Assembly (NCBI GenBank): GCA_050260475.1
Contig: JBLNCG010000019.1
Span: 10,166 to 74,165 of the forward strand
Direction: 5' to 3'
Length of the DNA stretch: 64,000 nt
Source of the DNA: Bacillota bacterium
GTDB lineage: Bacteria > Bacillota > UBA4882 > JBLNCG01
A program made the position numbers and the translations under genes. Positions 40-16,785 of this stretch are shown here, piece after piece; position 1 is the stretch's first letter; every line of letters starts with the position of its first letter. The notes under the pieces were generated by a model. The model made no database searches, had not been told where the DNA came from, and saw nothing but the letters and a program-made list of their open reading frames with translations.

Positions 40-114
40 CTTACTTCTAACTTCCCGCTTCACACTTCTCAGTCCCCCGGTCCCCTTCCCGGACCATCCG
101 CATATCTTATAGGA

Positions 115-226
115 GCAATTTGCGTTGTAACTATATTTTACGTACCACTAAATATCGATAGCCCAATGGTAGCCATACACTATGTTTAGTGGCAAGGCCT
201 GGCATTAAGGTAACAACGCAATTGCC
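115..226 (+). repeat. Intergenic palindromic repeat, copy E1 (full length, about 112 nt)
   Basis: Matches the consensus: outer inverted repeat GCAATTTGCGTTGTAAC / GTAACAACGCAATTGCC, inner inverted repeat CCACTAAATAT / ATGTTTAGTGG, and central core ATCGATAGCCCAATGGTAGCCATACAC. Confidence 0.9.
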
Positions 227-257
227 TTCAGTAAATCACGATAGGAGGTAATCCCGA

Positions 258-953
258 ATGTCGACCAACATTCCCTGCCCCGGAGGGACATTATATACCA
301 TCCGGCCCGGTGATGCCTATTATTTGCTGGCCCCGCGCTTCAATACCACCATCGCAGCATTGATTGCCGCCAATCCCGGGGTAGACCCCGCCAATCTGCA
401 AATCGGGCAACAGATCTGCATTCCTGTGGCCCCAGTCCCCGGACCTTGTCCGGGAGGCTTTTCCCATACCATCGTCACCGGAGATACTTTTTTCAGCCTT
501 GCCAGACGTTATGGCATCGCAGTGGCCGCCTTGACAGCCGCCAATCCGGGCGTGGATCCGGACCGGCTGCAGATCGGCCAGCAAATTTGCATCCCTGCGC
601 CGGCGCCCCGGCCCCAGCCCTGCCCAGGCTCTTTATACAGCATCAAACCGGGGGATACTTTCATTGGTTTGGCCAGGCGCTTCGGCTATACCTTGGATGC
701 CATTTTGGCGGCAAATCCCGGCGTAGATCCCAACAGGCTGCAAATCGGGCAGCAAATCTGCCTGCCGCCATCCCCCGGCGGAGGACCTTTTCCATGTTTC
801 GGGGGATCCATCTATATTGTCCAGCCCGGAGATACGCTTTTTGCAATCGCGCGAAAATTCGGCCTCAGCCTTGCAGCCCTGCTGCAGGCGAATCCCGAAA
901 TTGCCGATCCCGACCGCATCGTCGCGGGCCAAGCGGTCTGCATTCCCAGGTAA
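258..953 (+). CDS. LysM-repeat protein with four LysM domains separated by Pro/Cys-rich linkers; SafA-like, possibly spore-coat associated
   Basis: Four repeats of the form YxIxPGDTxxxLAxRFxxxxxALxxANPGVDPxxLQIGQQICIP. RBS AGGAGG lies 7 nt upstream of the ATG. Confidence 0.85.
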   Translation: MSTNIPCPGGTLYTIRPGDAYYLLAPRFNTTIAALIAANPGVDPANLQIGQQICIPVAPVPGPCPGGFSHTIVTGDTFFSLARRYGIAVAALTAANPGVDPDRLQIGQQICIPAPAPRPQPCPGSLYSIKPGDTFIGLARRFGYTLDAILAANPGVDPNRLQIGQQICLPPSPGGGPFPCFGGSIYIVQPGDTLFAIARKFGLSLAALLQANPEIADPDRIVAGQAVCIPR

Positions 954-1026: not shown

Positions 1027-1587
1027 ATGGATGAATTTTTCAGACATGAGAGCGAGGGGGAATGCGGCGAGGATGCGGATGGCGCCGGCGAAAACGGGAA
1101 ATGCGAAGTAATGCCTATTCCATTTTGCTGTTATGTAACGGTTCCGGAGGGTTTTGAACCCGCACGGGAATGCGAGAGGCCGGTGATCCTCGCGGCGATT
1201 GTCGGCAATTGCACCTTCCTGTGCGACTCCAAAAAGGAAATTGAAGACGTGAAGATCGGTACCGAATGCGGCAACCTTTACTGCGATATCGAAGTCCCCA
1301 AAACAGACCTGGTGGGTTCCATCAAAGTGCAAAGCGCTTTGAAAATAAAGGAGATCTGCGGCGAACAATACACCTTCGTATGCTGTTGCGACTGCGTCTG
1401 CATTAATGAGACCTTGTGCTACAGATGTCCGGGCTGCGAACCCCCTTCCGTGGAAGACGTGGCTATAGAAATCGATCCGCGTTCGCTGGATGCCTGTGCG
1501 GTCGATAATTGCAATTGCAAAACCCTTTACAAGATCACCGGGAAATTAAAAGTCGACTTCTCGTGCCCGCGCTGCAAGCAGTCTTGA
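1027..1587 (+). CDS. Cysteine-rich hypothetical protein (about 12% Cys; motifs CCYV, VCCCDCVC, CPGC, CPRC)
   Basis: ORF with RBS AAAGGAG 8 nt upstream. It is co-directional with the LysM gene and separated from it by 73 nt. Cys clustering is typical of spore coat or exosporium proteins, but I recognise no family. Confidence 0.6.
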   Translation: MDEFFRHESEGECGEDADGAGENGKCEVMPIPFCCYVTVPEGFEPARECERPVILAAIVGNCTFLCDSKKEIEDVKIGTECGNLYCDIEVPKTDLVGSIKVQSALKIKEICGEQYTFVCCCDCVCINETLCYRCPGCEPPSVEDVAIEIDPRSLDACAVDNCNCKTLYKITGKLKVDFSCPRCKQS

Positions 1588-1893: not shown

Positions 1894-2309
1894 GTTGGCG
1901 GGGATCGCCGTCAACAATTGCCCTGAAGCAATGTGAAAAGCGAAGCAAAGGAAGGGTGATGAAATGGAAACCGGATTCCGGCGCGTACGGAAAAAAGAAG
2001 CAAATCCATCCTCAGGTCATGAATTGAAAGCTTGTCAAATGCCTTGAATAAAATGATATCCCCGATTTCCCCGTGCTGACGGCTCCTGTCATATCCCCAC
2101 CTAATCACTATATAAAATTCGTATGGAACAGTATCCGACTTTAAACTTTCCCATAATATAACACGGAAAATAAAACTATCCGGTATTTTTCAATGATTTA
2201 TGCGGAAATATATCGACTATTTTCCTGTTTTTGCGGAGATTTTGTATCGCATCCGCGATAAAGAAAACCCGGTTGGATGTATTTATTTAATCACCGGCCT
2301 ATTATATAA

Positions 2310-2425
2310 GGCAATCGCGTTGTTACCTCAATGCCAGGTCTTGCCATTAATATAGTGTATGGCTATCATTAGGCTATCGATATTTAGCGGCAAGGCGTAA
2401 AATCATCATAAAAACGCAAATTGCT
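2310..2425 (-). repeat. Intergenic palindromic repeat, copy E2 (full length, inverted relative to E1)
   Basis: Its reverse complement matches the consensus end to end (GAGCAATTTGCGTTTTTATGATGATTTTACG ... GGTAACAACGCGATTGCC). Confidence 0.9.
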
Positions 2426-2466
2426 CTATATGACGATTTGCCGGAAGGTTGAAAGGAAGATGATAT

Positions 2467-4254
2467 ATGTCATTTAAGCGCACGAAAAGACTCCGGGAGC
2501 AAGCCGGAGACCAAGGAGATAATCTGTTTTCAGGGCGCAAATCGCTGGAAAGAGCTTTTGACGAAGCGGTGGAATTGCACCGCCGGGGGGTGGCCGGGGA
2601 TAAAGAGGCAGTCAGCAAGGCTTTTGCTCTTTTCGAAAAAATACATGAGGCGGCGCCCAAAAACAACCTGGCGGCCGCTTACTACGGCAGCTCTCTCGCC
2701 CTTCAGGGAAGGGACGCCGTAGACCCGAACGAGAGATTTCAAAAAGCCATCCGGGGTTTAAAATACCTGGACGCGGCAGCGGAGAATGAACCGGAAAACA
2801 TTCAGATACGGACTCTACGCGGATATGTATGCAGCCGCCTCCCCGAGGCTTTTTTTCACCGCACGCATACGGCGATAGAGGATTTCGGTTCCCTGGTTTC
2901 CCGCTTTGAGAAAGATCCGGGCCTGTTCGCGAAAGATTTCTATTGCCAGTTGCTTTACGATCTCGGAGCAGCATACAAGAACCTCAACCGCTGCGATGAA
3001 GCCGAACAAACATGGAAAAAATTGCTTTCCGTCACCGGCGGCTCTAAATATTTGAACCTGTTGCGCCAGGAAGGCTGCTCCCCCCCAAAGAACCCCGGAA
3101 GTTCATCAAGCGCCAATCCATCCGATGAAACAAGGCGCCTGGAAGAGGGGAGGAAACTTCACCGTGCAGCACTGAACTGCCGAAAAGGCGCCGCCCAAAG
3201 CGCATACGATTTTTTCACGAAGGCTCTGGATGAAACGCCGGGCCATCCGCTTTACTCCGCCTACCAGGCGGACTGCCTGTCCATGATCGGTCGGGATGCC
3301 GAGGATCCCGGGATGATGTTCGGCAACGCCATCAAAGCCATGAAAGTGCTGGATAATGCCGTAAACAACAATCCGGACAACTTTGAAATACGCTTGTTAC
3401 GCGCCAACCACAGCTTTCGGCTGCCGGAAGCCTTTTTCCGCAGGACCGCCACAGCTATCAGCGATTATGAGTATCTAACCGGCAGGTATGAAACAGATCC
3501 CTCAAGTTTCCCGGTTCAGGAATATTGGCGGTTGCTTTATAACCTGGGCGAGGCTTACCTCCGTCTGGGCCTTTCCACGGAAAGCTCTTCCGTCTGGAAA
3601 AAACTGCTTGAACTTAAACCGGATCCGGAATATAAGGATGCGGTGGAAAAACAGATGGATGCCGGTCTTCCGGACCGGGTAAAACACGTTTCCTTGCATG
3701 ACAAAGACGCATATTACCGGGAAGCGGTGCGCCTTCATGACCTGGCGGTCAACGGGCGTCCGGGGGCGGCCAAATCCGCCCTGGAATTGTGGGAAAAGGC
3801 ATTCAAAGCCGATCCCGAGAACGCCCTGGCCGAAGCCTATTACGGAAGCAGCCTGGCCTTATGCGGCCGCAACTCTACCGAACCCAACCGTCTTTTTTCG
3901 GATACCATCAAGGGGTTGAAGCATATCAACCGGGCAGCGGGGAAAGACTGGAAAAATCCTCAAATCCGCTTGCTCCGGGCCTATCTCACCTTCTCTTTGC
4001 CCGAATCCTTTTTCCATATGACAGAACGGGCCGTCAAGGATTTCAGGTATTTGAAATCAGCATATGAGCAGGATACCTCCCTATTCCCGGCCGGAGTATA
4101 TTACCGGATTTTATACGACCTGGGGCGGGCATACCGCCGTCTGAACCAGGATGCGCTGGCTGATAAAGTCTGGAAGAAATTATCCAAGGAACATCCGGAT
4201 TTATACCGGGAACTGGTTGAAGGAACCATCCCCCCGGAGGAGGAGAGCCGATGA
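2467..4254 (+). CDS. Helical-repeat (TPR-like) protein with three internal repeats of about 170 aa
   Basis: 595 aa. The repeats share AxAYYGSSLAL-GR----PN--F---IKGLK-L-------P-N-QIR-LR-Y----LPE-FFH-T--A--DF-YL---YE-D---FP---Y-LLY-LG-AY--L-------WKKL. RBS AAAGGAAG lies 6 nt upstream. The stop overlaps the next start (ATGA). Confidence 0.7.
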   Translation: MSFKRTKRLREQAGDQGDNLFSGRKSLERAFDEAVELHRRGVAGDKEAVSKAFALFEKIHEAAPKNNLAAAYYGSSLALQGRDAVDPNERFQKAIRGLKYLDAAAENEPENIQIRTLRGYVCSRLPEAFFHRTHTAIEDFGSLVSRFEKDPGLFAKDFYCQLLYDLGAAYKNLNRCDEAEQTWKKLLSVTGGSKYLNLLRQEGCSPPKNPGSSSSANPSDETRRLEEGRKLHRAALNCRKGAAQSAYDFFTKALDETPGHPLYSAYQADCLSMIGRDAEDPGMMFGNAIKAMKVLDNAVNNNPDNFEIRLLRANHSFRLPEAFFRRTATAISDYEYLTGRYETDPSSFPVQEYWRLLYNLGEAYLRLGLSTESSSVWKKLLELKPDPEYKDAVEKQMDAGLPDRVKHVSLHDKDAYYREAVRLHDLAVNGRPGAAKSALELWEKAFKADPENALAEAYYGSSLALCGRNSTEPNRLFSDTIKGLKHINRAAGKDWKNPQIRLLRAYLTFSLPESFFHMTERAVKDFRYLKSAYEQDTSLFPAGVYYRILYDLGRAYRRLNQDALADKVWKKLSKEHPDLYRELVEGTIPPEEESR

Positions 4255-5582
4255 ACTCGCTTTTTGAAAAAAAACTGCATTCCCTGGCAAAACCGCCTTT
4301 GATCTCGAAGTACTTCGATACCGGCGAATTTACGGACGCCATGGCCCTAGATAAGCTGGCCGCATACCACGATGAAGCGGTCCAATCAATAATTGCAATT
4401 GCATTTGAAAAATCCCCGTTCTATCGGAGGAAAATGTCCGAAGCCGGCATTACCGCTTCGGATATCGCAGGAACCGCCGGTTTGCCGCGCTTGCCCTTTA
4501 CCGCCAAGGAAGAGCTCAGGGGAAATCCCTGGATCCTGCTGGCCTGCCCCAAAGAGGACATCGCCTTGATTCAGGTCTCCACGGGGACCACCGGCGGGGA
4601 GGAAATATATATCATGTATACCTGGGAGGATTTTTATCTCCACGACCTTTCCCCCGGCTATCCCTCACTGGTGCCCGTGGAAAAGGGGGATGTCTGTTTC
4701 GTCGCCCTCCCCTATGAAATGAGTTCCGCCGGGCTGGCCTTTCATAAAACTTTTATGGAGGGCTGCCGGGCCACCGTGATCCCTTCCGGAAAAGGCGGGG
4801 CCTATTCTACGCCGGAAAAGACCGTAAAGCTTATGCGCGACCTCAAACCGACCGTGGTAATCACCACGCCGTCCTGGGCGGTCACCCTGGCCGAGGCGGC
4901 TGCCGCTTCCTCCCTCGACTTGCCGGACCTGCATCTAAAAAAAATCTGGCTGACCGGAGAGGGGTGCTCTCCGTCCTTCCGCTCACGCGTAGAGAAAATG
5001 TGGGGCGCCATAGCCAATTTTTATTACGGTTCGCTGGAATGCGGATGCATAGGAATCGAATGCGACGCCCACCAAGGGTATCACATTACCGCCGGACATG
5101 TATTCCTAGAAATCGTGGATCCGAAAACAGGCCAAGCGCTGGAGCCGGGAGAGATCGGGGAAATTGCCGCCACATGCCTGTTGAGATATCACACTCCCCT
5201 GCTGCGCTATAAGACGCAAGATCTTGGATATATCGACCTTGAACCCTGCCCTTGCGGAGTACCGCTGCCGCGCCTATTTTTGCGGGGAAGGCTGGTGGAT
5301 CAAATCGAAATCCGTGGAACTTCCTTCTCCCCGTTTTACCTGGAGGAATTTTTGATGCGGCTCCCGGAAGTAGGCAACTGGTTTCAGATTGTCGCGGATC
5401 CCGCCTGCCCGGATCTGCTCCGCATACGGTGCGAATTGGCGCCCGGCGTACAGGCATCAACTGAACTCGCTGATATATTGGCCAGCAAAATGGAATACTT
5501 TACGGGGCTCCCCTGCCGGTTCGAATTTGCCGAACGGATCCCGCGCACAGGGGGAAAAGCTTTGCGCGTGGTCAAGGAATAA
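4251..5582 (+). CDS. PaaK / coenzyme-F390-synthetase / CapK-family adenylate-forming enzyme (paralogue 1)
   Basis: 443 aa. It carries the AMP-binding-like motif VSTGTTGG and has the overall PaaK architecture. The 4-nt overlap with the upstream gene suggests translational coupling. Confidence 0.75.
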   Translation: MNSLFEKKLHSLAKPPLISKYFDTGEFTDAMALDKLAAYHDEAVQSIIAIAFEKSPFYRRKMSEAGITASDIAGTAGLPRLPFTAKEELRGNPWILLACPKEDIALIQVSTGTTGGEEIYIMYTWEDFYLHDLSPGYPSLVPVEKGDVCFVALPYEMSSAGLAFHKTFMEGCRATVIPSGKGGAYSTPEKTVKLMRDLKPTVVITTPSWAVTLAEAAAASSLDLPDLHLKKIWLTGEGCSPSFRSRVEKMWGAIANFYYGSLECGCIGIECDAHQGYHITAGHVFLEIVDPKTGQALEPGEIGEIAATCLLRYHTPLLRYKTQDLGYIDLEPCPCGVPLPRLFLRGRLVDQIEIRGTSFSPFYLEEFLMRLPEVGNWFQIVADPACPDLLRIRCELAPGVQASTELADILASKMEYFTGLPCRFEFAERIPRTGGKALRVVKE

Positions 5583-5604
5583 TGCCCTGAAAGGAGTGTT
5601 GAAT

Positions 5605-6384
5605 ATGATCATCGACGCCCACGCCCATCTTTCCAACACCGATTACGGCAATACCCTTCTCTACCTCAAGCAGATACAGGAAGCCGGCATTGAAAAAGGA
5701 ATGGCGGTCCCCGGAGGAATGGTGGACGTCAGGAGAATGACGGACTATATCACCGGAAAATCCGCGCCGGATAATCCCGTCCCCGACAACGGATATGTGG
5801 CCCAAGCCTGCCGGGATCATGAAGGCGTCCTTTACGGTTTTCTATGCATAAATCCGCATGATCCGGATGCGCTTCACGCCGCGGAGCAAGGATTTCAAAA
5901 CGGATACCGGGGATTAAAATTATCCCCCCTCACCCACCAATTTTCCTTCGCCGGTAAAGCGGTGGCGGATCTTGCCGCCCTGTGCGGGAATTATGGGCTT
6001 CCCATGTATACCCATGTCGTATACAGCCCCGGAGCCTGCACCGGCAAATTCATCGCTTTGGCCAGGCAATTTCCCGGGACCCATTTTTTATTGGGGCACA
6101 TGGGATTCGGTCCGGCGGACAGCGAAGGGCTGGAAGCAGCGGCTGAACTGGACAATTTTTATATGGAAACATCCACCGGCAGCTTTCTTCACATCAAAGA
6201 GGCCGTAAAAAAAGCCGGGTCCGGGAAAGTTGTTTTCGGCTCGGAATTCCCTTTGTCCCACCCGTTCGTGGAGCTTGTAAAAATCCTGCGGCTTGACCTG
6301 GCTGAGGTGGATACGGAAAAAATCCTGGGGGGAAATATCAGCGCGCTGACCGGCCTGCCCGGCACCTGGAGGCATGAAAAATGA
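5605..6384 (+). CDS. Metal-dependent amidohydrolase (amidohydrolase-2-like TIM barrel)
   Basis: Starts MIIDAHAHL and contains HMGFGP. ATG at 5605 with AAAGGAG 7 nt upstream. The longer ORF from 5389 overlaps the previous gene and is rejected. Confidence 0.7.
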   Translation: MIIDAHAHLSNTDYGNTLLYLKQIQEAGIEKGMAVPGGMVDVRRMTDYITGKSAPDNPVPDNGYVAQACRDHEGVLYGFLCINPHDPDALHAAEQGFQNGYRGLKLSPLTHQFSFAGKAVADLAALCGNYGLPMYTHVVYSPGACTGKFIALARQFPGTHFLLGHMGFGPADSEGLEAAAELDNFYMETSTGSFLHIKEAVKKAGSGKVVFGSEFPLSHPFVELVKILRLDLAEVDTEKILGGNISALTGLPGTWRHEK

Positions 6385-7640
6385 ATTCCGGCGAAATGAA
6401 ACTCAAACTCTTGAACCGGACCCTTAAAAGGTGTGAAAAATCCGAATTCTACCGGGGCAGGCCGGGGGGGAAATCCTTGAAATCTTTGGATGATTTGAAA
6501 GGCATCCCGCTGACCACCAAGGATGATCTGCGCAACAACTCCCCGTACGGTTTGATCTGCGCGCCCCGCCGGGCGCTCGTGCAATACCACGAATCCTTCG
6601 GCACCACGGGAGTCCCGGTTTCCATATGGCTGACCAGGGAGGATCTGCGCCGTAACGCCAAAATAATATCATACTGGGGCGTGGGTTTCAACGCGGACGA
6701 TACAGTCTTAATCCGCTATCCTTATGCCATTTCAGGCGTCGCCCACATGGTGCACGCCGGAGCGCAACGTAAAAAGGCCTGCGTTATTCCGGCCAGCTCC
6801 CGTACCGCAGTATGCCCTTTTCCCCGTATCGTAAGCCTAATGCGCAAGCTGGGCGTAACCGTCCTGGCCGGATTGCCCCTGCAGGCGCTGCTCATCGCGG
6901 AAACCGCCGAGTTGATGGGTTACCGGCCCGGAAAGGATTTTCCGATGCTGCGCGCCCTCTGTACTGCCGGTGAACCGCTTTCGCCCTGGCGCCGGAAATT
7001 GCTGGAGGATATCTGGGGTGTCCCGGTGTTCGACAATTACGGCCTGACGGAAACCGGACCGCTTGCTCTGGATTGTGAATTCGGACACTTGCATCCCCTG
7101 GAGGATGATTATATCTTTGAAATCCTGCGCGATGACTTTCAAACACCGTCGGCGGAAAACGAATGCGGATATCTTGTCATCACCACATTATGCAGGGAGG
7201 GAACCCCCTTGCTGAGATATCTCACCGGAGACCTAGTAAGGATGGTCGAACAGGATTGCCCCTGCGGATCCCGCCTGACTATGGAAGTACACGGCCGTTC
7301 CGAGCAGCGCATATCCGCGGGTCCGGCAATCCTTGACATATGGGACCTCGATGAAATCGTTTCGTTTCTTCCATATCGCCGCTTCTGGATAGCGGCGCCC
7401 GCTCAAGACGGAATCAAAATAGTCCTTGAAGAAGAGCCGGAATCCGGCCCTCTGCATTATAAAAAAGCTGATTCGTTGGAAACCCGTTTCGGCGTCCGGG
7501 TGCACCTAGAAATCGTACCGAAAGGAACGCTTTTTAACCGCAGCAAACTCCTGGAAACGGCCATAATAGGTAAACCTGCTTATATCGTATCCCCGGAAGA
7601 GCTGGCCGAAAAAAAGCAACCGGCTGCATCCGTCCTCTAA
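6381..7640 (+). CDS. PaaK / F390-synthetase-family adenylate-forming enzyme (paralogue 2)
   Basis: 419 aa with motif SFGTTGVP and the context KGIPLTTKDDLR typical of the PaaK N-domain. It overlaps the amidohydrolase stop (ATGA). Confidence 0.7.
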   Translation: MNSGEMKLKLLNRTLKRCEKSEFYRGRPGGKSLKSLDDLKGIPLTTKDDLRNNSPYGLICAPRRALVQYHESFGTTGVPVSIWLTREDLRRNAKIISYWGVGFNADDTVLIRYPYAISGVAHMVHAGAQRKKACVIPASSRTAVCPFPRIVSLMRKLGVTVLAGLPLQALLIAETAELMGYRPGKDFPMLRALCTAGEPLSPWRRKLLEDIWGVPVFDNYGLTETGPLALDCEFGHLHPLEDDYIFEILRDDFQTPSAENECGYLVITTLCREGTPLLRYLTGDLVRMVEQDCPCGSRLTMEVHGRSEQRISAGPAILDIWDLDEIVSFLPYRRFWIAAPAQDGIKIVLEEEPESGPLHYKKADSLETRFGVRVHLEIVPKGTLFNRSKLLETAIIGKPAYIVSPEELAEKKQPAASVL

Positions 7641-7646
7641 ATTAAA

Positions 7647-7757
7647 GCAATTTGCGTTGTTATGATAATTTTACGTCCTGCCAAAATATCGATAGCCTAA
7701 TGGTAACCGTACACTTATTTAGCGGCAAGACCTTGAATTAAAATAAACGCAATTGCC
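7647..7757 (+). repeat. Intergenic palindromic repeat, copy E3 (full length)
   Basis: GCAATTTGCGTTGTTATGATAATTTTACGTCCTGCCAAAATATCGATAGCCTAATGGTAACCGTACAC ... AATAAACGCAATTGCC. Confidence 0.9.
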
Positions 7758-7797
7758 TCAATTAAGAAACATCCGCGACATCCGGAAAGGAGCATGT

Positions 7798-8907
7798 TTG
7801 TTGAATAAGAGCGTTATAAAAGAGATATGGTTTGACGGTCGGGGCCTCCCCCTCCATTCTCAAACCTGGAACCTGATTTACAACTCCCCCATCGCCAAGA
7901 TCATAACTACCCCAGATCAGCGCAAGAGTAACCGTTTTCCGTTTAAAACGGAATTCATGATCGAACCGGGGACTTCCGGAGATTTGGAAGGATTCACCGA
8001 AGGAGATACCGTAATTTCGGATCAGCCGGATCTTCTTTCTGCGGCACAAAGAAAAAGATTGAAAACATGCCTTATTCTGTCCGTAAAATCCGGCCAATCA
8101 CTGGATCAACTATGCAAGGAAGCTTCGTTATATGATTATGTTGCGTTGGATTTCGATTTGCCCACCAATATCCCTCTGGAGCTGTTTATAGCACGTTTAC
8201 AGGACGGCGATACGGCCATCCTTCGCATGACAAATACGGTAGAAGACGTAAAAGTCGCATTCGGAGTCCTGGAAAAAGGAAGCGACGGCGTAATCTTCGG
8301 CAGCGCGGAACTGGCGCAAATCGAGGCTTTATGTGCCTTCATGGTTGAAAATGAGAATTCGAAAATCGATTTGCGCCCGCTTATCGTTACGGAAATAAGA
8401 TATGCCGGTATGGGCATGCGCGCATGCATCGACACCACCGGCTTGATGACACAAGAAGAGGGAATGCTGGTCGGTTCCACCTCCAACGGCGGCATCTTTG
8501 TCTGCTCGGAAACACATTTCCTCCCTTATATGAACCTTCGCCCGTTCAGAGTAAATGCCGGCGCCGTGCATTCTTATGTCTGGATGCCGGGGGACAACGC
8601 GGAATACATCACCGATCTTTCGGCGGGCAGCAGGATTTTATGCGTGAATACAGGAAGCGGCTTGCGGGAGCTTACCGTGGGAAGGGTGAAGATCGAAAAA
8701 AGGCCCCTGCTCATGATAAAAGGCAGTTCCAATGGGGCGGAAATCAATGTCATTATTCAGGATGACTGGCACATCCGTTTGATGGGAGCGGACGGGAAGC
8801 CCAAAAACGCCACATTGATCCGCCCCGGGGATGAACTGCTTGCATACCCCTGCAAACCGGGACGACATGTAGGCATTAAAGTCCATGAGACAATCATCGA
8901 GAAATAA
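7798..8907 (+). CDS. 3-dehydroquinate synthase II, archaeal-type (AroB')
   Basis: N-terminus KEIWFDGRG and overall similarity to archaeal DHQ synthase II. I take the start as TTG 7798 (AAAGGAG 5 nt upstream). The ORF-track start at 7753 lies inside the repeat and is unlikely. Confidence 0.7.
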   Translation: MLNKSVIKEIWFDGRGLPLHSQTWNLIYNSPIAKIITTPDQRKSNRFPFKTEFMIEPGTSGDLEGFTEGDTVISDQPDLLSAAQRKRLKTCLILSVKSGQSLDQLCKEASLYDYVALDFDLPTNIPLELFIARLQDGDTAILRMTNTVEDVKVAFGVLEKGSDGVIFGSAELAQIEALCAFMVENENSKIDLRPLIVTEIRYAGMGMRACIDTTGLMTQEEGMLVGSTSNGGIFVCSETHFLPYMNLRPFRVNAGAVHSYVWMPGDNAEYITDLSAGSRILCVNTGSGLRELTVGRVKIEKRPLLMIKGSSNGAEINVIIQDDWHIRLMGADGKPKNATLIRPGDELLAYPCKPGRHVGIKVHETIIEK

Positions 8908-8918
8908 CGCCAAAGGGG

Positions 8919-9692
8919 GTGAACGAAATTTCTGGAAAGGAAATCCGATTGGGGCGCCTGTTTAAACAAGGGAAGCGCCTGTTTATCGTTCCCATGGACC
9001 ACGGTATCACTTCCGGCCCTTTGGGCGGACTGGAAGATATAAGTAAAACAGTAAAGCAGGTTTCCGAGGGCGGCGCCGACGCAGTAATCGTGCACAAAGG
9101 CCTGGCCAGGTATATTTCCTCCAATTTAGCTCCGGTCAACTGTGAATTGATTATTCACCTTTCGGCTTCCACATCTCTTGCCGCGGATCCGAGCAGAAAG
9201 GAACTGGTTTCCTCGGTTGAACAGGCGATAAGGCTGGGAGCAGCGGCGGCTTCAATTCATGTAAACCTGGGAACGCCTTCCGAACCGCAAATGTTGAAAG
9301 ATCTGGGATGGGCGGCGGAACAATGCGATCGCTGGGGTTTGCCCATGCTGGCCATGATGTATGTAAAAGACGGAAAACCGGAGAGCGAGTACGATGCGGG
9401 TAAAATCAGGCACGCTGCGAGAATCGCGGAAGAATTGGGCGCAGATATCATAAAGGTTAATTATACAGCTACACCGGACACTTTTTCCATGGTGACATCG
9501 TCGGTCAAATCGCCGGTAATAATCGCCGGCGGCCCGAAGGCGGATTCCCCGGACGCCCTTTATCGAATGATCAAGGAAGCTGTAGCAGCAGGGGCCCGGG
9601 GGGCCGCCATCGGAAGAAACGTCTTCGGAACCGCCGATCCGGTGAGTGTGTCCCGAACAATCCGCCGGATCCTGGATAATGAAATCCAATGA
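8919..9692 (+). CDS. DhnA-type class I aldolase-family enzyme, consistent with 2-amino-3,7-dideoxy-D-threo-hept-6-ulosonate synthase (AroA')
   Basis: LFIVPMDHGITSGP is typical of the DhnA/ADH-synthase family. GTG start with AAAGGGGG upstream. It sits immediately downstream of aroB'. Confidence 0.7.
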   Translation: MNEISGKEIRLGRLFKQGKRLFIVPMDHGITSGPLGGLEDISKTVKQVSEGGADAVIVHKGLARYISSNLAPVNCELIIHLSASTSLAADPSRKELVSSVEQAIRLGAAAASIHVNLGTPSEPQMLKDLGWAAEQCDRWGLPMLAMMYVKDGKPESEYDAGKIRHAARIAEELGADIIKVNYTATPDTFSMVTSSVKSPVIIAGGPKADSPDALYRMIKEAVAAGARGAAIGRNVFGTADPVSVSRTIRRILDNEIQ

Positions 9693-9983: not shown

Positions 9984-10940
9984 TTATTCCAACCCAAATC
10001 CCTCATCCATGCCGAGCATGATGTTCATGCATTGCACCGCAGCTCCCGAAGCGCCTTTCCCCAGATTGTCCAATCTCGCCAGCAGCAGGATTTGCTCATC
10101 GTTCCCGAAAATAAACAGTTCAGCCCGGTTGGTGCCATTGCACGCCGTCGGATCGAAATAGCCGCCGTCAGCTCCGGCCTCCGGATCGAGCGGCATAACT
10201 TTTACAAAACGCTCTCCTTTATAATAGCCGGCCAAAAAGGCATGAGCTTCCTTCACCGTCAATTTTTGCTTCAATAAACGGCTGAATAATGGAACAGCCA
10301 CCGCCATTCCCTGGTAAAAATCCCCCACAATCGGCGTAAAAAGTGGCGGCGCCGCAAGCCCCGATATCTGTAACATTTCCGGCAGGTGTTTATGGCTTAA
10401 TCCAAGCGCGTAATGCCTTGAGGCCGCCATATGAACCCCCCTGGCGGATCCCTCGTATTGTTCGATAAGCTTCCTGCCGCCTCCGCTGTAACCTGTAACG
10501 GAATGGCAGGTTACGGCATAATCTCTCGGTACTGCGCCCTCCGTTATAAAGGGATAAAGCAAAAGCACAAAACCCGTGGCATGGCAGCCCGGCACGGAAA
10601 CCCGTGCCGCATGGGCGATTCTTTCTCTCTGCGCGCCGTTTAACTCCGGAAGTCCATAGACCCATCCGGGATCAATGCGGTGCGCCGTACTGGCGTCGAT
10701 CACGCGCGTCTTACCGCTGCTTATCAAGGAAACCGATTCTCGGGCAGCGTCATCCGGCAGGCAAAGAAAAACCAGGTCAGCTTCGTTGAGAATCGCGCGG
10801 CGCACTTCCGGATCTTTCCGTTTCTCCCCGTCGACGCACAGGACTTCCAAATCCGGCCTGTTTGCCAACCGTTCATGAATTTTCAAGCCCGTGGTCCCGG
10901 CCTGGCCGTCAATATAAATCTTATATTTCAAGGTATTCAC
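9984..10940 (-). CDS. argC: N-acetyl-gamma-glutamyl-phosphate reductase, short (uncommon) form
   Basis: 318 aa with the motif SVPGCHATGF and a Rossmann N-terminus YIDGQAGTTGLKIHERL. Confidence 0.8.
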   Translation of the reverse strand: MNTLKYKIYIDGQAGTTGLKIHERLANRPDLEVLCVDGEKRKDPEVRRAILNEADLVFLCLPDDAARESVSLISSGKTRVIDASTAHRIDPGWVYGLPELNGAQRERIAHAARVSVPGCHATGFVLLLYPFITEGAVPRDYAVTCHSVTGYSGGGRKLIEQYEGSARGVHMAASRHYALGLSHKHLPEMLQISGLAAPPLFTPIVGDFYQGMAVAVPLFSRLLKQKLTVKEAHAFLAGYYKGERFVKVMPLDPEAGADGGYFDPTACNGTNRAELFIFGNDEQILLLARLDNLGKGASGAAVQCMNIMLGMDEGFGLE

Positions 10941-13156: not shown

Positions 13157-15310
13157 TCAATCCATTTCCACTATATAGACTTTTGTATCGAAACCTTTCA
13201 TGGCGGTATTTATAATCATTCTATCCTGCGCATAACTGCAGGCCACCGGATCCCCGGTGAACAGATCCATCACCCTGCCCTTGGCCATGACGGTCAATTC
13301 TGTTTCAAAAGTCCTGTTCAACGCATTGAGCAAAAACACCAGCCAGGTCCGGCCATTGATGAGGACCCTGGCGCTTACATCGGTCTGGTTTGTAAAGGCT
13401 TCCCTGAAAACATCCCTGTTGATGTCGCTGATGAATTGCAAAAAACCTTTATTGGCGGTGCCGTTATATTGATAAAACGGATTTGAGCCGATATAGACGG
13501 CCTTTCCTTTACCGTAATCGTTGCAGATTATGGCCGGTTCCCCGGTCTCGAAGACCCCCATCACCTTTCCGGTTGTGGGTTCCAGAACTTCCTTATAAAA
13601 ACCGGTTTCGATTCTGGCGCTTCCATAAACCAGCGGCGGTATTTCCCTGGCGGAGCGGATATCCCTGCGCACGCATCCGAACAGCTCGTCCAGGCCAAGC
13701 CCCGGCGCCTTGACCGTGGTGAAGAACGTCTCATCCAGCTGGCCCGCGGACGCCTCGCACACCAAAGTCCCCCCCGCAGCCACCCATTCCTTCAGCTTAG
13801 CGACGGAGCGCCTGCTGATCCATATGGGAAAAGGCAGATAGATGACTTTATACTGTTTATATTCCTGATCCACCACCAATTCATCGATGCGGACGAAATC
13901 GAGCAAGTAGTCAAGACTCCATAAGGCCTTGTGCAGGCCCTTGATGGAATTCTTGATCTGGCAGTGGCAGCCCAGGGCGGCATAATTAACCAGATCATTG
14001 ATGGGGGTTACACCCGCGGCGATTTTTACCTCCGGAAGGCGGGCATTTTTGATGAGATCCTCGTGCTGATGCACGATCCGGCTCAGTTCTTTCACCACCT
14101 GCAATCTCTCCGAGGGAGCGCCGTCCATGTCCGTCAATCCGAAGCCATACTCCAGCCCGAAAAGCTCGCACCGGTACTGCCAGAACAGGATTCCTTTTCC
14201 CCCCTGGGCGATGCCCGACCATGCCCACATCTTCAATCTCTCCGGCGTCACAATACCGGGATCGAAGGCGCCGGTCTGGACGTCCCGGATCCCTTCCATG
14301 GTGGTGGAATTGCAGATGAAACAGCGCGGTTCCGCATCGTTGCGGTGAATTCCCATTCCATAAGGGCCGGCTTGGAGTTCGGACATCCAGAACTCCTTTC
14401 CCCGCGCGGCGCTTCGGGCGCCGGCCATGGCGATAAAGTATTCATGCTCCGGGCCGCACTGCGGAAAAGCCGCCGTGCCGTATATATCCGCCTCCCCGGC
14501 GAAAGCCCAATCGTCGATGCCTTCCTTGGTCGCCGGGCGGGTTACTCCGCTGCCGCCGCGGGTATGGATGATCACCGGATGATCGGGATCGTTATCCCGG
14601 ATAGCCTTGACGCGCCAGGCTATGGTGTCCTGCAGCGCCCCCATGGAAAAAAGCCTCCAATCCACCCAGTCGGCATAGGATCCCCTGCGCCTCGGAGGTT
14701 GCGCCTCGTCGAACCGGCCGTATTTTCTGCGCCAGACGGCGTTCAATTTATTGATGTCGCCGCCATATTTAACCGCCAGCCATCTCTGAAACTTCGCTAC
14801 GGTCTTGCCGCAATAGCAGTAAATCTCATCGTTGTACCTGGCCGGTTCGAACAGCGGCTCGTTGGCCGGCTCCCATCCGTAAACCGCCGGATGACTGCGG
14901 AACCGCCTCACCACTTCGGTGATGTATTTTTTCCCTTCCGCCGCGACTTTTTCATGGTCGAAACAAAGCCCGGGAAAGCCGCCCGCGGGAGTATTGCCCA
15001 TCGCTTCAGGATAAAACCTGCGCCCTGTAGCGGAAACATATAGCGCTTCCGGGTATTTCCTCTGCGCCCAGGCGGGCGCGGATTCCAGATTGAACAGCAA
15101 AACGGCCTTCAGATCATATTTATGGCACAGGTCCAGCAGCGTCCGGATCTCCATAAAATCAAACCTGCCCTGCTTCTGGCTGTACCAGTTCCACATCAGC
15201 CACGCCCGGATGATATTCAGGCCGTTTTCCCGGGCTGTCTTCAAATCCTTTTCCCAGTTCTCCGGAAGAGGGGTGGGAGCCCGGTAGAATTGCGTCCCTA
15301 TTGGAAACAA
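13157..15310 (-). CDS. Beta-galactosidase, glycoside hydrolase family 42
   Basis: 717 aa with a GH42 N-terminal TIM barrel (FPIGTQFYRAPTP ... NIIRAWLMWNW). TTG start with AAAGGAG upstream. Confidence 0.8.
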   Translation of the reverse strand: MFPIGTQFYRAPTPLPENWEKDLKTARENGLNIIRAWLMWNWYSQKQGRFDFMEIRTLLDLCHKYDLKAVLLFNLESAPAWAQRKYPEALYVSATGRRFYPEAMGNTPAGGFPGLCFDHEKVAAEGKKYITEVVRRFRSHPAVYGWEPANEPLFEPARYNDEIYCYCGKTVAKFQRWLAVKYGGDINKLNAVWRRKYGRFDEAQPPRRRGSYADWVDWRLFSMGALQDTIAWRVKAIRDNDPDHPVIIHTRGGSGVTRPATKEGIDDWAFAGEADIYGTAAFPQCGPEHEYFIAMAGARSAARGKEFWMSELQAGPYGMGIHRNDAEPRCFICNSTTMEGIRDVQTGAFDPGIVTPERLKMWAWSGIAQGGKGILFWQYRCELFGLEYGFGLTDMDGAPSERLQVVKELSRIVHQHEDLIKNARLPEVKIAAGVTPINDLVNYAALGCHCQIKNSIKGLHKALWSLDYLLDFVRIDELVVDQEYKQYKVIYLPFPIWISRRSVAKLKEWVAAGGTLVCEASAGQLDETFFTTVKAPGLGLDELFGCVRRDIRSAREIPPLVYGSARIETGFYKEVLEPTTGKVMGVFETGEPAIICNDYGKGKAVYIGSNPFYQYNGTANKGFLQFISDINRDVFREAFTNQTDVSARVLINGRTWLVFLLNALNRTFETELTVMAKGRVMDLFTGDPVACSYAQDRMIINTAMKGFDTKVYIVEMD

Positions 15311-15502
15311 TTATCAGTCACTCCTTTTTGCATTCATCCTTCCAGGGGATTGCAAATCAATAAAAACAATATATCATGAAGAAGAGGCGCAAGTCAACCT
15401 GCGCAGGTTATGATGCTTCCTTCTTTATCCAGACTTCTCCATAGGGATAGCACACTTCACACTTTACAGTTCATGCTTTTAAAAGAACATATCACAGCCC
15501 AT

Positions 15503-16570
15503 TCAGGGCTGAAGCATGATCTCTATAACCCCCGTATCTCCTTCACTGGTAATCGCCGTCCCGTACTTGGCGGAGAAAAGGCGCAGGTCGTTTAAAACCC
15601 TCTCGGCGTCGGCGCCGGTTCGGGGCCGGGTCTGGTATAAAGTCTCCCAGTTTGCCACATTCATCGGATAGATGACCAACTTTTCCGGATGATTGCCGTT
15701 CCAGAAGATCTTGAAGACGGCGCTGTCGGTCACTTTCTTCGACATGGAGCTGAAGGCGAAATTTCCCAGGCTGTAGGCGATGATCTTTCCGCGGTAAATT
15801 TCGATCCCCTGCAGGACATGGGGATGGTGGCCCACCACCAGGTCCGCGCCGGCCTGAATAAGCGCATGCCCCACTTCCTCCTGGTAGGGCAAGGGGTAAT
15901 TTCTCAACTCCCCGCTCCAGTGGACCGCCGCCACCACCAGTACGGCTCCGGCATCCCGCGCCTTTTGAACGTCTTTGGCGAAATACTCCGCAGCGGCCCA
16001 GGCCATCCCGGATCTCGACGAGGTCGCGTAATACTCCATGGGAAAAACCCGCGCATAGGAAAGAAGGGCGATTTTACGGCCGTTTTGTTCGGCAAAGGCC
16101 GGTTTCCGGGCTTCGGACAGGTTGAAACCGGCTCCGGCGCGGCCGATCCCCCGTTCGTCCAGGACCCGCAAGGTTTCCGCCAGCGCCTGCGGCCCGTAGT
16201 CCATGATATGGTTGTTGGCCAGGGAAACCAGATCAAATCCGCCCGAAAGAAGGGCGTCCGCGGTGCGGGGATCGGCGTGAAGGTAAAACTGCTTTTCTTT
16301 CACATATTTGCCTCCGGCGAGAGACAGGGGCGACTCCAGATTCCCGATGGTAAAGTCGGAGGAATTTAAAAGATCCTTCACATAAATGAAAGGATAATCC
16401 GGGCCGTTTTTAAGTATTCTATCCTGCAAACCTCCGCCGAAATAAAGATCGCCCACCACGATGACGGAATAAACGCCGGGATCGGGAACCTCGGCGGCGT
16501 CCCCCGCCCCCGCCCGGGCCATGCAGGTAAATAAAACCGCCGCCGATATAAACAGGATACTTTTACGCAT
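15503..16570 (-). CDS. CapA/PgsA-family metallophosphoesterase (poly-gamma-glutamate-synthesis-like) with a signal peptide
   Basis: Motifs VVGDLYFGG and GADLVVGHHPHVLQG. RBS AAAGGAGG. Confidence 0.75.
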   Translation of the reverse strand: MRKSILFISAAVLFTCMARAGAGDAAEVPDPGVYSVIVVGDLYFGGGLQDRILKNGPDYPFIYVKDLLNSSDFTIGNLESPLSLAGGKYVKEKQFYLHADPRTADALLSGGFDLVSLANNHIMDYGPQALAETLRVLDERGIGRAGAGFNLSEARKPAFAEQNGRKIALLSYARVFPMEYYATSSRSGMAWAAAEYFAKDVQKARDAGAVLVVAAVHWSGELRNYPLPYQEEVGHALIQAGADLVVGHHPHVLQGIEIYRGKIIAYSLGNFAFSSMSKKVTDSAVFKIFWNGNHPEKLVIYPMNVANWETLYQTRPRTGADAERVLNDLRLFSAKYGTAITSEGDTGVIEIMLQP

Positions 16571-16689
16571 CTTGCGTCCTCCTTTTTATGGCAGACCCAA
16601 TACAATGTATATTCTTAACAAAAATATTACTTCCGCGGGGGATAAAAATTAAAAAAAAATCATATCCTGTCTCTGGTGGAGGTGAAGGC

Positions 16690-16785
16690 ATGCGCAAAAA
16701 TCGTTGCAAGTATTGTGGTACGTGGCATTGGTCCTGGGAAACTCATTGCCGCAAATGCAGCGGAGACCTTTTTGCACGGTTTTAG
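16690..16785 (+). CDS. Putative 31-aa zinc-ribbon peptide (MRKNRCKYCGTWHWSWETHCRKCSGDLFARF)
   Basis: Strong RBS GGTGGAGGTGA 5 nt upstream. Cys pairs CxxC ... CxxC. A GC-rich hairpin follows at about 16832-16870. Confidence 0.35.
   Translation: MRKNRCKYCGTWHWSWETHCRKCSGDLFARF

What the first reader, a model, noticed from the sequence alone, without database searches (positions are those of the whole stretch)
2467..9692. Plus-strand island: tri-repeat TPR-like protein, two PaaK/F390-synthetase-like adenylating enzymes, an amidohydrolase, and archaeal-type DHQ synthase II plus ADH synthase
Four translationally coupled genes (2467-7640, with ATGA overlaps) encode a 595-aa protein built from three repeats of about 170 aa, two paralogous PaaK/CapK/F390-synthetase-family adenylate-forming enzymes, and an amidohydrolase-2 hydrolase. 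One repeat copy lies between them and an aroB'/aroA' pair (7798-9692). The aro pair is the archaeal-type route to 3-dehydroquinate from aspartate semialdehyde and a deoxy-keto-sugar phosphate. The PaaK family activates aryl-acetates and aryl acids. Its adjacency to an alternative shikimate-precursor module suggests a dedicated pathway that makes or conjugates a shikimate-derived aromatic acid. The whole block sits between two repeat copies on an otherwise minus-strand housekeeping background.
Basis: partly seen in the sequence, partly recalled or inferred. Interest (0 to 1): 0.6.

Follow-up and report, generated by a model that had tools for sequence, protein, structure and literature searches.

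The report
Benzoxazole (closoxazole-type) biosynthetic gene cluster
This six-gene operon most likely makes its own 3-amino-4-hydroxybenzoic acid and joins it into a closoxazole-like benzoxazole natural product, so it is not an alternative shikimate pathway; the one unexplained part is a conserved three-module helical-repeat protein that the studied versions of the pathway lack.

Summary
The genes are real and lie at the stated coordinates. Each of the five enzymes pairs one-to-one with an enzyme of the experimentally characterised closoxazole cluster clxA-E of Clostridium cavendishii (35-41% identity). The gene order, ligase-amidohydrolase-ligase-DHQS-II-like-aldolase, matches the order published for pfxA-E of Pyxidicoccus. 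It also matches 10 of 12 myxobacterial loci fetched here (46-60% identity for the ligases and the amidohydrolase).

The "archaeal aroB'/aroA'" label does not discriminate. ClxE, a proven 3,4-AHBA-pathway aldolase, scores above the NCBIfam "ADH synthase" equivalog cut-off and is closer to the archaeal MJ0400 than the window protein is.

Context decides the reading. In 37 Bacillota-type loci with complete flanks, the pair lies within 10 kb of the amidohydrolase in 31. These include aerobic Bacilli.

The best reading is a 3,4-AHBA-derived benzoxazole cluster, a kind known since 2022.

The TPR protein appears to be undescribed in the papers I could read. It consists of three copies of a ~175-aa module. 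That module occurs in 64 of 68 Bacillota-type loci, in none of the myxobacterial loci and not at the clx locus. It also exists as stand-alone genes and belongs to a small family. Its role is unknown.

The flanking "repeat copies" belong to a dispersed palindromic intergenic element and do not mark an island boundary.

The parts
2296..2436 (-). Copy of a dispersed ~125-nt palindromic intergenic repeat, upstream of the operon. It contains a sigma-70-like hexamer pair at 2341-2369.
   Evidence: The promoter-like match is not above the shuffle expectation.
2467..4254 (+). Protein of three ~175-aa TPR-like modules (DNA 2542-3078, 3115-3648, 3697-4221). Its role is unknown. Its stop overlaps the start of ligase 1 (ATGA).
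   Evidence: Pfam TPR families. Module matches to stand-alone homologues. AlphaFold model is all-helical, pLDDT 89.8. Foldseek finds only generic TPR proteins, TM below 0.3. The module is present in 64 of 68 Bacillota-type loci.
4251..5582 (+). Ligase 1, a PaaK-like ANL adenylating enzyme of the ClxC/PfxA type. It is inferred to activate the benzoxazole carboxylate and attach a third aryl unit.
   Evidence: 41% identity and 337 bits to ClxC. 57-60% identity to the first ligase of the myxobacterial pfx-type loci. It falls below all PaaK equivalog cut-offs.
5605..6384 (+). Amidohydro_2 metal-dependent hydrolase of the ClxD/PfxB type, the inferred benzoxazole-forming cyclase.
   Evidence: 38% identity to ClxD. 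49-53% identity to the myxobacterial homologues in pfx-type five-gene loci. The HxH motif and further His/Glu positions are invariant with ClxD. PF04909 at 2e-20.
6381..7640 (+). Ligase 2, an ANL enzyme of the ClxA/PfxC/NatL2 type. It is inferred to adenylate 3,4-AHBA and join two units.
   Evidence: Best solved structures are ClxA 9s3l (5.5e-70), AjiA1 (7e-65) and NatL2 (8e-62), against true PaaK at 1e-25 to 1e-37. 35% identity to ClxA. ClxA residues Y219, T222, D281 and the C-terminal Lys K393 are kept.
7637..7777 (+). Second copy of the dispersed palindromic repeat, inserted in the intergenic gap inside the operon.
   Evidence: The published Logan contig L001 ends inside it.
7798..8907 (+). 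DHQS-II-family protein (PF01959) of the ClxB/GriH type, the inferred 3,4-AHBA synthase. TTG start with a GGAAAGGAG ribosome-binding site upstream.
   Evidence: 39% identity to ClxB. All DHQS-II equivalog cut-offs are missed, and the best model, NF002625, is the same as for ClxB. Start read from the sequence.
8919..9692 (+). DeoC/DhnA-type class I aldolase of the ClxE/GriI type. It is inferred to condense aspartate semialdehyde with a C3 ketose phosphate.
   Evidence: 39% identity to ClxE and 45% to MJ0400, while ClxE itself is 49% identical to MJ0400. TIGR01949 score 296.0, below the cut-off of 299.45.

Best explanation
The block 2467-9692 is a single operon for a 3-amino-4-hydroxybenzoate (3,4-AHBA)-derived benzoxazole of the closoxazole type. 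All steps below are inferred by homology to characterised enzymes.

1. The aldolase (8919-9692) and the DHQS-II-like enzyme (7798-8907) make 3,4-AHBA from aspartate semialdehyde and a C3 sugar phosphate. This is GriI/GriH chemistry, shown for ClxE/ClxB.
2. Ligase 2 (ClxA/PfxC type) adenylates 3,4-AHBA and joins it to a second molecule as a labile ester, which can rearrange to an amide.
3. The amidohydrolase (ClxD/PfxB type) cyclodehydrates this dimer to a 2-aryl-benzoxazole carboxylate.
4. Ligase 1 (ClxC/PfxA type) adenylates that carboxylate and adds a third aryl amine unit.

No CoA thioester or carrier protein is involved.

The three-module TPR protein is co-translated with ligase 1 and is an accessory specific to Bacillota. 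My preferred guess, at low confidence, is that it is a scaffold or binding protein that couples the ligases to the cyclase or holds the product. It is not needed for closoxazole synthesis in the clx and pfx systems.
For: - One-to-one homology of all five enzymes to ClxA-E from the C. cavendishii locus L004: 41, 38, 35, 39 and 39% identity at E 1e-59 to 1e-115.
- The same gene order as published for pfxA-E (PMC12118335). The same order is seen in 10 of 12 myxobacterial loci. Identity there is 53-60% for ligase 1, 49-53% for the amidohydrolase and 46-48% for ligase 2.
- The nearest solved structures to ligase 2 are the benzoxazole ligases ClxA, AjiA1 and NatL2, not PaaK. The domain-swapped C-terminal Lys and the nucleotide-binding residues are kept (PMC12519233).
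- Control: the proven AHBA enzymes ClxB and ClxE give the same NCBIfam score profile as the window pair.
- The six genes are syntenic across Bacilli, Clostridia and heliobacteria.
- The cluster is rare, found in 113 of 185,579 species genomes with the patterns used. That fits specialised rather than housekeeping metabolism.
- Functions of ClxA-E and PfxA-C come from PMC9400959 and PMC12118335.
Against: - Identity to the characterised enzymes is only 35-41% (Clx), and P. fallax itself was not among the loci I hold. The product is therefore inferred, not shown.
- The aldolase passes the PRK07226 'ADH synthase' subfamily cut-off and nearly passes TIGR01949.
- ClxA residue N226, which contacts the 4-OH of AHBA, is Pro here, although it is also Pro in the myxobacterial homologues.
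- Some relatives have TPR-amidohydrolase-DHQS-II-aldolase with no ligase within 10 kb. The ligase-then-cyclase logic does not explain this unless the ligases lie elsewhere in those genomes.
- The strong conservation of the amidohydrolase across Bacillota (62-70% identity in the best 120 database hits; 54-69% in the non-myxobacterial genome loci) is unusual for a natural-product cluster.
- The TPR protein has no assigned step.
Confidence: 0.78

Rival explanations
1. The pair is AroA'/AroB' and makes 3-dehydroquinate from aspartate semialdehyde and 6-deoxy-5-ketofructose-1-phosphate. The PaaK-like enzymes then activate a shikimate-derived aryl acid as a CoA thioester.
For: The aldolase scores 300 bits on PRK07226 (cut-off 241) and 296 bits on TIGR01949 (cut-off 299.45). 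It is 45% identical to MJ0400. PF01959 matches at 1e-94.
Against: The proven AHBA aldolase ClxE scores higher on the same models (341 and 323 bits) and is 49% identical to MJ0400, so these scores do not discriminate. All DHQS-II equivalog cut-offs are missed. Both ligases miss the PaaK cut-offs by a factor of more than 3. Ligase 2 is far closer to the CoA-independent benzoxazole ligases. The pair travels with ClxA/C/D homologues, not with aro genes; tyrA and hisC lie 36 kb away in the window.
Confidence: 0.07
2. The pair is simply this anaerobe's primary route to DHQ and sits next to an unrelated ligase/amidohydrolase operon by chance.
For: No canonical DAHP synthase or aroB was seen in the parts of the 64-kb window that I scanned. 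A repeat copy separates the pair from the quartet.
Against: The adjacency is conserved in 31 of 37 loci with complete flanks. These include aerobic Bacilli such as Metabacillus, Rossellomorea and Brevibacillus, which from general knowledge use the canonical pathway; I did not test that here. In relatives the genes are contiguous without the repeat. 64 kb is too little sequence to show that aroG/aroB are absent.
Confidence: 0.03
3. The enzyme families are the same but the end product differs. The Bacillota version would make an AHBA-derived compound other than a free closoxazole. Examples are a different third unit, a metal-binding compound that is re-imported, or an aryl group that is held by or attached to the multi-module TPR protein.
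For: The TPR module is present in 64 of 68 Bacillota-type loci and absent from the clx and pfx-type loci. Ligase-less variants and amidohydrolase-less variants also carry the module. Liv-type and NMT1-type ABC transport genes adjoin the cluster in Desulfitobacterium, and Liv-type genes adjoin it in Thermincola. Identity to Clx is 35-41%.
Against: No direct evidence. The window locus has no transporter and no tailoring genes. The five core enzymes suffice for closoxazole in E. coli and in vitro (PMC9400959, PMC12118335).
Confidence: 0.15

Closest known systems
pfxA-E closoxazole cluster of Pyxidicoccus fallax (Lernoud et al. 2025, PMC12118335) and its myxobacterial homologues
   Same: The five-gene order is identical: ClxC-type ligase, amidohydrolase, ClxA-type ligase, DHQS-II-like, aldolase. 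Identity to the Sorangium, Archangium, Cystobacter, Chondromyces and Nannocystis loci is 53-60% for ligase 1, 49-53% for the amidohydrolase and 46-48% for ligase 2.
   Different: The myxobacterial loci have no TPR-module gene (0 of 12). Their aldolase is divergent (31-33% identity). I did not hold the P. fallax locus itself, so the comparison is with relatives of the same gene order.
clxA-E closoxazole cluster of Clostridium cavendishii (Horch et al. 2022, PMC9400959)
   Same: All five enzymes have a one-to-one homologue here at 35-41% identity. The NCBIfam score profiles are the same. The ClxA structure 9s3l is the best solved-structure hit of ligase 2.
   Different: The gene order differs (clx: ligase, AHBA synthase, ligase, amidohydrolase, aldolase). 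There is no TPR module within 10 kb of clx. ClxA N226 and K140 are not conserved.
NatL2/NatAM (nataxazole) and AjiA1 benzoxazole enzymes of Streptomyces
   Same: Ligase 2 matches NatL2 and AjiA1 at 8e-62 and 7e-65 and keeps the C-terminal extension Lys. The ligase-then-amidohydrolase logic is the same.
   Different: The precursor there is chorismate-derived 3-hydroxyanthranilate. NatAM is not detectably related to this amidohydrolase, since no such hit appeared among solved structures. Those pathways also use carrier proteins.
GriI/GriH (grixazone) and BagB/BagC/BagE (bagremycin/ferroverdin) 3,4-AHBA systems of Streptomyces
   Same: The enzyme families are the same. BagE_FevW is the best NCBIfam model for ligase 2 (241 bits), and BagC_FevH and BagB_FevI score 228 and 209 bits on the pair.
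   Different: All scores are far below those models' cut-offs (800, 750 and 500). Those clusters have no Amidohydro_2 cyclase.
Archaeal AroA'/AroB' (MJ0400/MJ1249) route to 3-dehydroquinate
   Same: The two protein families are the same. The aldolase is 45% identical to MJ0400.
   Different: The equivalog cut-offs are not met. The N-terminal ~90 residues of ClxB and of the Brevibacillus and Desulfitobacterium homologues align to the NF002625 and BagC models but not to most of the archaeal DHQS-II models. The genomic context is clx-like and not aro.

Membership tests
Closoxazole-type (clx/pfx) benzoxazole gene cluster | A ClxA/PfxC/NatL2-type ANL ligase with a C-terminal extension that supplies a catalytic Lys | tested here: met
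   Ligase 2 matches ClxA (9s3l) at 5.5e-70 and NatL2 at 8e-62. Y219, T222, D281 and K393 are conserved.
Closoxazole-type (clx/pfx) benzoxazole gene cluster | A second, ClxC/PfxA-type ANL ligase | tested here: met
   Ligase 1 is 41% identical to ClxC (337 bits) but only 29% identical to ClxA.
Closoxazole-type (clx/pfx) benzoxazole gene cluster | A ClxD/PfxB-type Amidohydro_2 cyclase | tested here: met
   38% identity to ClxD over 251 aa at 9e-59. The HxH motif and other metal-site-like positions are invariant in alignment A1. Catalytic activity was not tested.
Closoxazole-type (clx/pfx) benzoxazole gene cluster | A ClxB (DHQS-II-like) plus ClxE (DhnA aldolase) pair supplying 3,4-AHBA | tested here: inconclusive
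   Homology is met at 39% identity each, and the HMM profile is the same as for ClxB and ClxE. Sequence alone did not separate AHBA-forming from DHQ-forming members.
Closoxazole-type (clx/pfx) benzoxazole gene cluster | The five genes are clustered and conserved as a unit | tested here: met
   The order equals pfxA-E. All six genes co-occur in 25 of 37 loci with complete flanks, and 10 of 12 myxobacterial loci share the five-gene order.
Closoxazole-type (clx/pfx) benzoxazole gene cluster | Production of a meta-substituted benzoxazole from 3,4-AHBA | not testable with these tools
   This needs expression and LC-MS.
Archaeal-type DHQ pathway (ADH synthase AroA' plus DHQ synthase II AroB') | Scores above the curated equivalog cut-offs of the ADH synthase and DHQS-II models | tested here: not met
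   TIGR01949 gives 296.0 against 299.45. DHQS-II equivalogs give 182-246 bits against 392-629. The test is weak in the other direction, because ClxE passes TIGR01949 with 323 bits.
Archaeal-type DHQ pathway (ADH synthase AroA' plus DHQ synthase II AroB') | The genome lacks DAHP synthase and AroB, so the pair is the only entry to the shikimate pathway | not testable with these tools
   Only 64 kb of the MAG is available. No aroG or aroB was found in the scanned parts of the window, but that proves nothing.
Archaeal-type DHQ pathway (ADH synthase AroA' plus DHQ synthase II AroB') | Context with aromatic amino-acid genes rather than natural-product genes | tested here: not met
   The pair is linked to ClxA/C/D homologues in 31 of 37 complete loci. 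tyrA and hisC lie at 45.9-48.3 kb.
Phenylacetate-CoA ligase PaaK | Score above the PaaK equivalog cut-offs | tested here: not met
   Ligase 1 gives 192 against 700 and 165 against 646. Ligase 2 gives 141 against 700 and 122 against 646.
Tetratricopeptide-repeat proteins | Pfam TPR models above the gathering score and an all-helical hairpin-repeat fold | tested here: met
   TPR_19 gives 48.1 against 25 and TPR_14 gives 45.4 against 23.5. The AlphaFold model is all-helical, and Foldseek hits are TPR proteins at E down to 1e-7 with TM below 0.3. This places the fold but not the function.

The most novel reading that the evidence does not exclude
The ~175-aa TPR-like module may be a dedicated and so far undescribed partner of ClxA/ClxC-type aryl-acid ligase pairs and ClxD-type cyclases. 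It could be a multi-site scaffold that channels the labile ester intermediate. It could also be a stoichiometric binder or a covalent acceptor of the aryl or benzoxazole product, which would make the Bacillota pathway protein-associated rather than a free small-molecule pathway. Three points fit this idea but none demonstrates it: three different cluster architectures share the module, the module number varies from 1 to 6, and one variant carries Lys-rich tails.
Probability: 0.12. Interest if true: 0.7.

Novelty: new variant of a known kind. Interest (0 to 1): 0.4.

Why it matters
Three points matter.

1. Annotation. DHQS-II and "ADH synthase" labels in bacteria can hide 3,4-AHBA synthases. 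A curated equivalog model (TIGR01949) accepts the proven AHBA enzyme ClxE. Metabolic reconstructions that infer an "archaeal shikimate entry" from these two genes in Bacillota are therefore probably wrong wherever the genes sit next to ClxA/C/D homologues.

2. Distribution. A conserved closoxazole-type cluster is spread through spore-forming Bacillota. It occurs in Metabacillus, Brevibacillus, heliobacteria, Desulfitobacterium, Syntrophomonas and Thermincola. In the papers I could read, a product has been reported from only one Bacillota species, C. cavendishii.

3. A concrete target. The conserved multi-module TPR protein has no counterpart in the studied clx and pfx pathways. It may explain how the labile ester intermediate is handled, or what the compound is for.

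Tried and rejected
- **HMM naming of the pair.** I tried to separate AHBA-forming from DHQ-forming enzymes with NCBIfam models. I rejected this as a discriminator after the ClxB/ClxE control.
- **Identity to MJ0400.** This was also rejected as a discriminator, because ClxE is closer to MJ0400 than the window protein is.
- **Solved structures.** There is none for the DHQS-II-like protein. For the amidohydrolase there is only a weak hit, 3cjp.
- **Supplementary tables of Horch et al.** These are not held as text, so I could not check whether the Bacillota clusters or the TPR gene are listed there.
- **PDB code search.** Searching the literature for 9S3L found nothing. I identified the chain as ClxA through a protein search instead.
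- **Foldseek on the full TPR model.** It returned only generic TPR proteins. I did not model a single module.
- **Downstream neighbours.** I considered the downstream semialdehyde dehydrogenase as a supplier of aspartate semialdehyde. It is ArgC. Neither it nor the HAD and PfkB genes recur in any of the 80 loci.
- **Mobile-island boundaries.** I considered that the flanking repeats mark a mobile island. I rejected this because the element has at least 9 full copies in the window and relatives have the six genes contiguous without it.
- **Rfam.** Nothing was found in the region.
- **Literature on TPR with AHBA.** These searches were unproductive.

Full report
**Observation.** Profile searches give TPR families for 2467-4254 and AMP-binding for both 4251-5582 and 6381-7640. 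They give Amidohydro_2 for the gene between the two ligases, DHQS (PF01959, 1e-94) for 7798-8907 and DeoC (2e-52) for 8919-9692.

Several details need correcting. The amidohydrolase starts at 5605, not inside ligase 1. An independent gene call on a 5.3-kb public contig identical to this locus gives a 259-aa product, and the homologues start at the same MIIDAHAH. Two of the three junctions of the quartet are therefore ATGA overlaps (4251, 6381), and the third is a 22-nt spacer. The DHQS-II-like gene most plausibly starts at the TTG at 7798, behind GGAAAGGAG, which gives 369 aa, like its homologues.

The source is an uncultured Bacillota MAG. The rest of the window is housekeeping and sporulation genes, almost all on the - strand. 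They include YebC, XerD, SpoIIM, deoB, lysA, scpAB, ispH-rpsA, cmk, tyrA, hisC, ileS with a T-box, and hydF/hydG.

**Tri-repeat protein.** The 595-aa protein consists of three copies of a ~175-aa helical module at aa 26-204, 217-394 and 411-585. The clearest proof is that the same module exists as separate 182-186-aa genes in Desulfitobacterium and Brevibacillus. These match each of the three stretches at E 1e-31 to 3e-55. An AlphaFold model built on 68 homologues is confident (pLDDT 89.8) and entirely helical, with about nine helices per module. Foldseek against the PDB returns only generic TPR proteins such as APC/C subunits, OGT and Ctr9, with TM-scores below 0.3.

**What the enzymes are.** NCBIfam gave the first lead. 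The best model for ligase 2 is BagE/FevW, and the pair also hits BagC/FevH and BagB/FevI, all below cut-off. Against solved structures, ligase 2 matches three benzoxazole-pathway ligases far better than true phenylacetate-CoA ligases. The scores are 9s3l 5.5e-70, AjiA1 7e-65 and NatL2 8e-62, against PaaK at 1e-25 to 1e-37.

I reconstructed the 9s3l chain from the printed alignment. It proved identical to a C. cavendishii protein whose contig carries the published clxA-E cluster (Horch et al. 2022, PMC9400959). Direct BLASTP gives the following one-to-one pairs:

| Window protein | Clx partner | Identity |
|---|---|---|
| Ligase 1 | ClxC | 41% |
| Amidohydrolase | ClxD | 38% |
| Ligase 2 | ClxA | 35% |
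| DHQS-II-like | ClxB | 39% |
| Aldolase | ClxE | 39% |

For comparison, the experimentally validated Pyxidicoccus Pfx enzymes are reported as 27-40% similar to their Clx counterparts (PMC12118335).

**Functions known from the literature.**
- ClxB and ClxE together make 3,4-AHBA in E. coli.
- ClxA joins two AHBA units.
- ClxC adds the third unit.
- PfxC forms an ester, PfxB cyclises it and does not accept the rearranged amide, and PfxA makes closoxazole A.
- ClxA forms aryl esters, and its structure shows a domain-swapped C-terminal Lys (K393).

Ligase 2 keeps Y219, T222, D281 and K393. The AHBA 4-OH contact N226 is Pro here, as it is in the myxobacterial homologues.

**Is the pair aroA'/aroB'?** Names and scores cannot decide this.

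| Measure | Window aldolase | ClxE (proven AHBA pathway) |
|---|---|---|
| TIGR01949 "ADH synthase" score (cut-off 299.45) | 296 bits | 323 bits |
| PRK07226 score | 300 bits | 341 bits |
| Identity to archaeal MJ0400 | 45% | 49% |

ClxB and the window DHQS-II-like protein share the same best model, NF002625, a "family protein" subfamily. Both miss every DHQS-II equivalog cut-off.

**Synteny.** I scanned one genome per species (185,579 species) with an amidohydrolase alignment. The scan found 113 relatives, and I examined 80 loci.

| Gene | Present in non-myxobacterial loci (of 68) |
|---|---|
| TPR module | 64 |
| Ligase 1 type | 60 |
| Ligase 2 type | 51 |
| DHQS-II-like | 49 |
| Aldolase | 47 |

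Most absences fall at contig ends. The modal order is exactly that of the window. Restricting to the 37 loci with full 10-kb flanks gives TPR in 37, the pair in 31 and all six genes in 25.

Carriers include aerobic Bacilli (Metabacillus, Rossellomorea, Halalkalibacter, Filobacillus, Aquisalibacillus, Brevibacillus, Aneurinibacillus). They also include heliobacteria, Thermincola, Syntrophomonas, Desulfitobacterium and Ammonifex.

Twelve Myxococcota loci carry the five enzymes in the same order without any TPR gene. That is the order published for pfxA-E. The clx locus has no TPR module within 10 kb. The window's neighbours ArgC, HAD and PfkB recur in none of the 80 loci.

**Mechanism.** I therefore read the locus as a pfx/clx-type benzoxazole cluster.
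1. The aldolase and the DHQS-II-like enzyme make 3,4-AHBA. The GriI/GriH chemistry, aspartate semialdehyde plus dihydroxyacetone phosphate, is from my own knowledge of Suzuki et al. 2006 and was not tested here.
2. Ligase 2 dimerises AHBA through an adenylate.
3. The amidohydrolase closes the oxazole ring.
4. Ligase 1 adds a third unit.

All steps are inferred by homology. None is shown for this organism.

**Features that do not fit neatly.**
- The amidohydrolase is unusually conserved. It is 62-70% identical to the window protein in the best 120 database hits and 54-69% in the non-myxobacterial genome loci. The TPR protein is only 40-56% identical.
- Metabacillus litoralis and M. crassostreae have an operon of TPR, amidohydrolase, DHQS-II-like and aldolase with no ligase within 10 kb. 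Thermincola has the same four genes in a divergent arrangement, also without a ligase.
- The TPR module belongs to a small family. Among 1.84 billion cluster representatives, 746, 229 and 86 match at E up to 1e-3, 1e-10 and 1e-30. I looked up four distant single-module members. Two sit beside a different operon made of a ClxC-like ligase, a ClxA-like ligase and a DAHP_synth_1-family enzyme. That operon has no amidohydrolase and no DHQS-II/aldolase pair, and its modules carry Lys-rich tails. The other two are in unrelated contexts.
- The module number per locus is usually 3 (35 loci) or 4 (19 loci), and ranges up to 6.
- In some loci a single module directly precedes ligase 1 while the triple module precedes the amidohydrolase.
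- The TPR stop overlaps the start of ligase 1 both here and in Brevibacillus.

These patterns tie the module to this chemistry but do not reveal its role. A scaffold that passes the labile ester to the cyclase, a product-binding protein and an acyl acceptor are all open possibilities.

**The repeats.** The "repeat copies" belong to a ~125-nt element with at least 9 full copies in the window. Mean column identity is 78%. The element folds as one long hairpin (-45 kcal/mol, z = -7) and has no Rfam family. One copy has landed in the gap between ligase 2 and the DHQS-II-like gene. A public assembly breaks there. The copies do not define an island.

**Verdict.**
- It is most likely wrong about DHQ, shikimate and PaaK-type CoA activation.
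- The kind has been known since 2022, and its spread into Firmicutes was already noted by Horch et al..
- As far as the main texts I could read show, two findings are undescribed. One is the conserved multi-module TPR partner and its wider association with this ligase pair. The other is that a curated "ADH synthase" model accepts a proven AHBA enzyme.
- Interest is moderate.

Noticed in passing
window 105-245, 2296-2436(rc), 7637-7777, 24660-24800, 32715-32855, 35084-35224(rc), 53259-53399, 55886-56026, 61289-61414; partial copies at 23334-23385, 49126-49155, 62884-62977: A dispersed ~125-nt palindromic intergenic element occurs about once per 5-7 kb. Its copies align with 78% mean column identity, and it folds into one long hairpin (-45 kcal/mol, z = -7). 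It has no Rfam family. It looks like a MITE- or REP-like element of this lineage.
   Followed up: partly
L004:14588-15412 (ClxE) against NCBIfam TIGR01949: The curated equivalog model for 'ADH synthase' scores the experimentally proven 3,4-AHBA-pathway aldolase ClxE at 323 bits, above its 299.45 cut-off. Automatic annotation will therefore name AHBA aldolases as archaeal shikimate enzymes.
   Followed up: yes
L086:3737-8873 and L088:2146-8720: A second cluster type has two single TPR-like modules, one with a Lys-rich C-terminal tail. They lie divergent from a ClxC-like ligase, a ClxA-like ligase and a DAHP_synth_1-family enzyme. In L088 an APS kinase is also present. There is no amidohydrolase and no DHQS-II/aldolase pair.
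   Followed up: partly
L034:7428-12691 (Metabacillus litoralis), L035, L041; L016:5459-10756 and L021 (Thermincola): These are variants without ligases. The Metabacillus loci have TPR modules, the amidohydrolase, the DHQS-II-like gene and the aldolase in one operon. Thermincola has the same genes in a divergent arrangement. No ClxA/C-type ligase lies within 10 kb.
   Followed up: partly
L002:7239-9907 and 13359-17842 (Desulfitobacterium dichloroeliminans); L016:2337-5430 (Thermincola): Liv-type (Peripla_BP_6) ABC transporter genes lie inside or beside the cluster in both relatives. Desulfitobacterium also has NMT1-type ABC transporter genes there. This hints at uptake of a building block or of the product. 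The window locus has none.
   Followed up: no
window 9984-10940 (-): The semialdehyde-dehydrogenase-family gene that converges on the operon is ArgC (TIGR01851, 428 bits against a cut-off of 230), not aspartate-semialdehyde dehydrogenase. It is not conserved next to the cluster in any of the 80 loci.
   Followed up: yes
window 258-953 and 1027-1587 (+): Upstream on the same strand lie a protein with four LysM repeats that matches the SafA/ExsA spore-coat LysM domain and a Cys-rich 186-aa orphan ORF with no family hit. LysM genes also lie near the cluster in L009, L019, L031 and L034.
   Followed up: no
window 52921-53140 (-): A T-box leader (124 bits) lies upstream of ileS (49653-52796).
   Followed up: no
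L010, L045, L046: Contigs binned as Bacteroidota, Actinomycetota and Patescibacteria MAGs carry this cluster. Their amidohydrolases are 63-69% identical to the window protein, the same range as the Bacillota loci. This looks like mis-binning of Bacillota contigs.
   Followed up: no
window 41936-43954 (-): A fused ispH-rpsA gene encodes a bifunctional HMBPP reductase / ribosomal protein S1 (NF000907, 660 bits).
   Followed up: no
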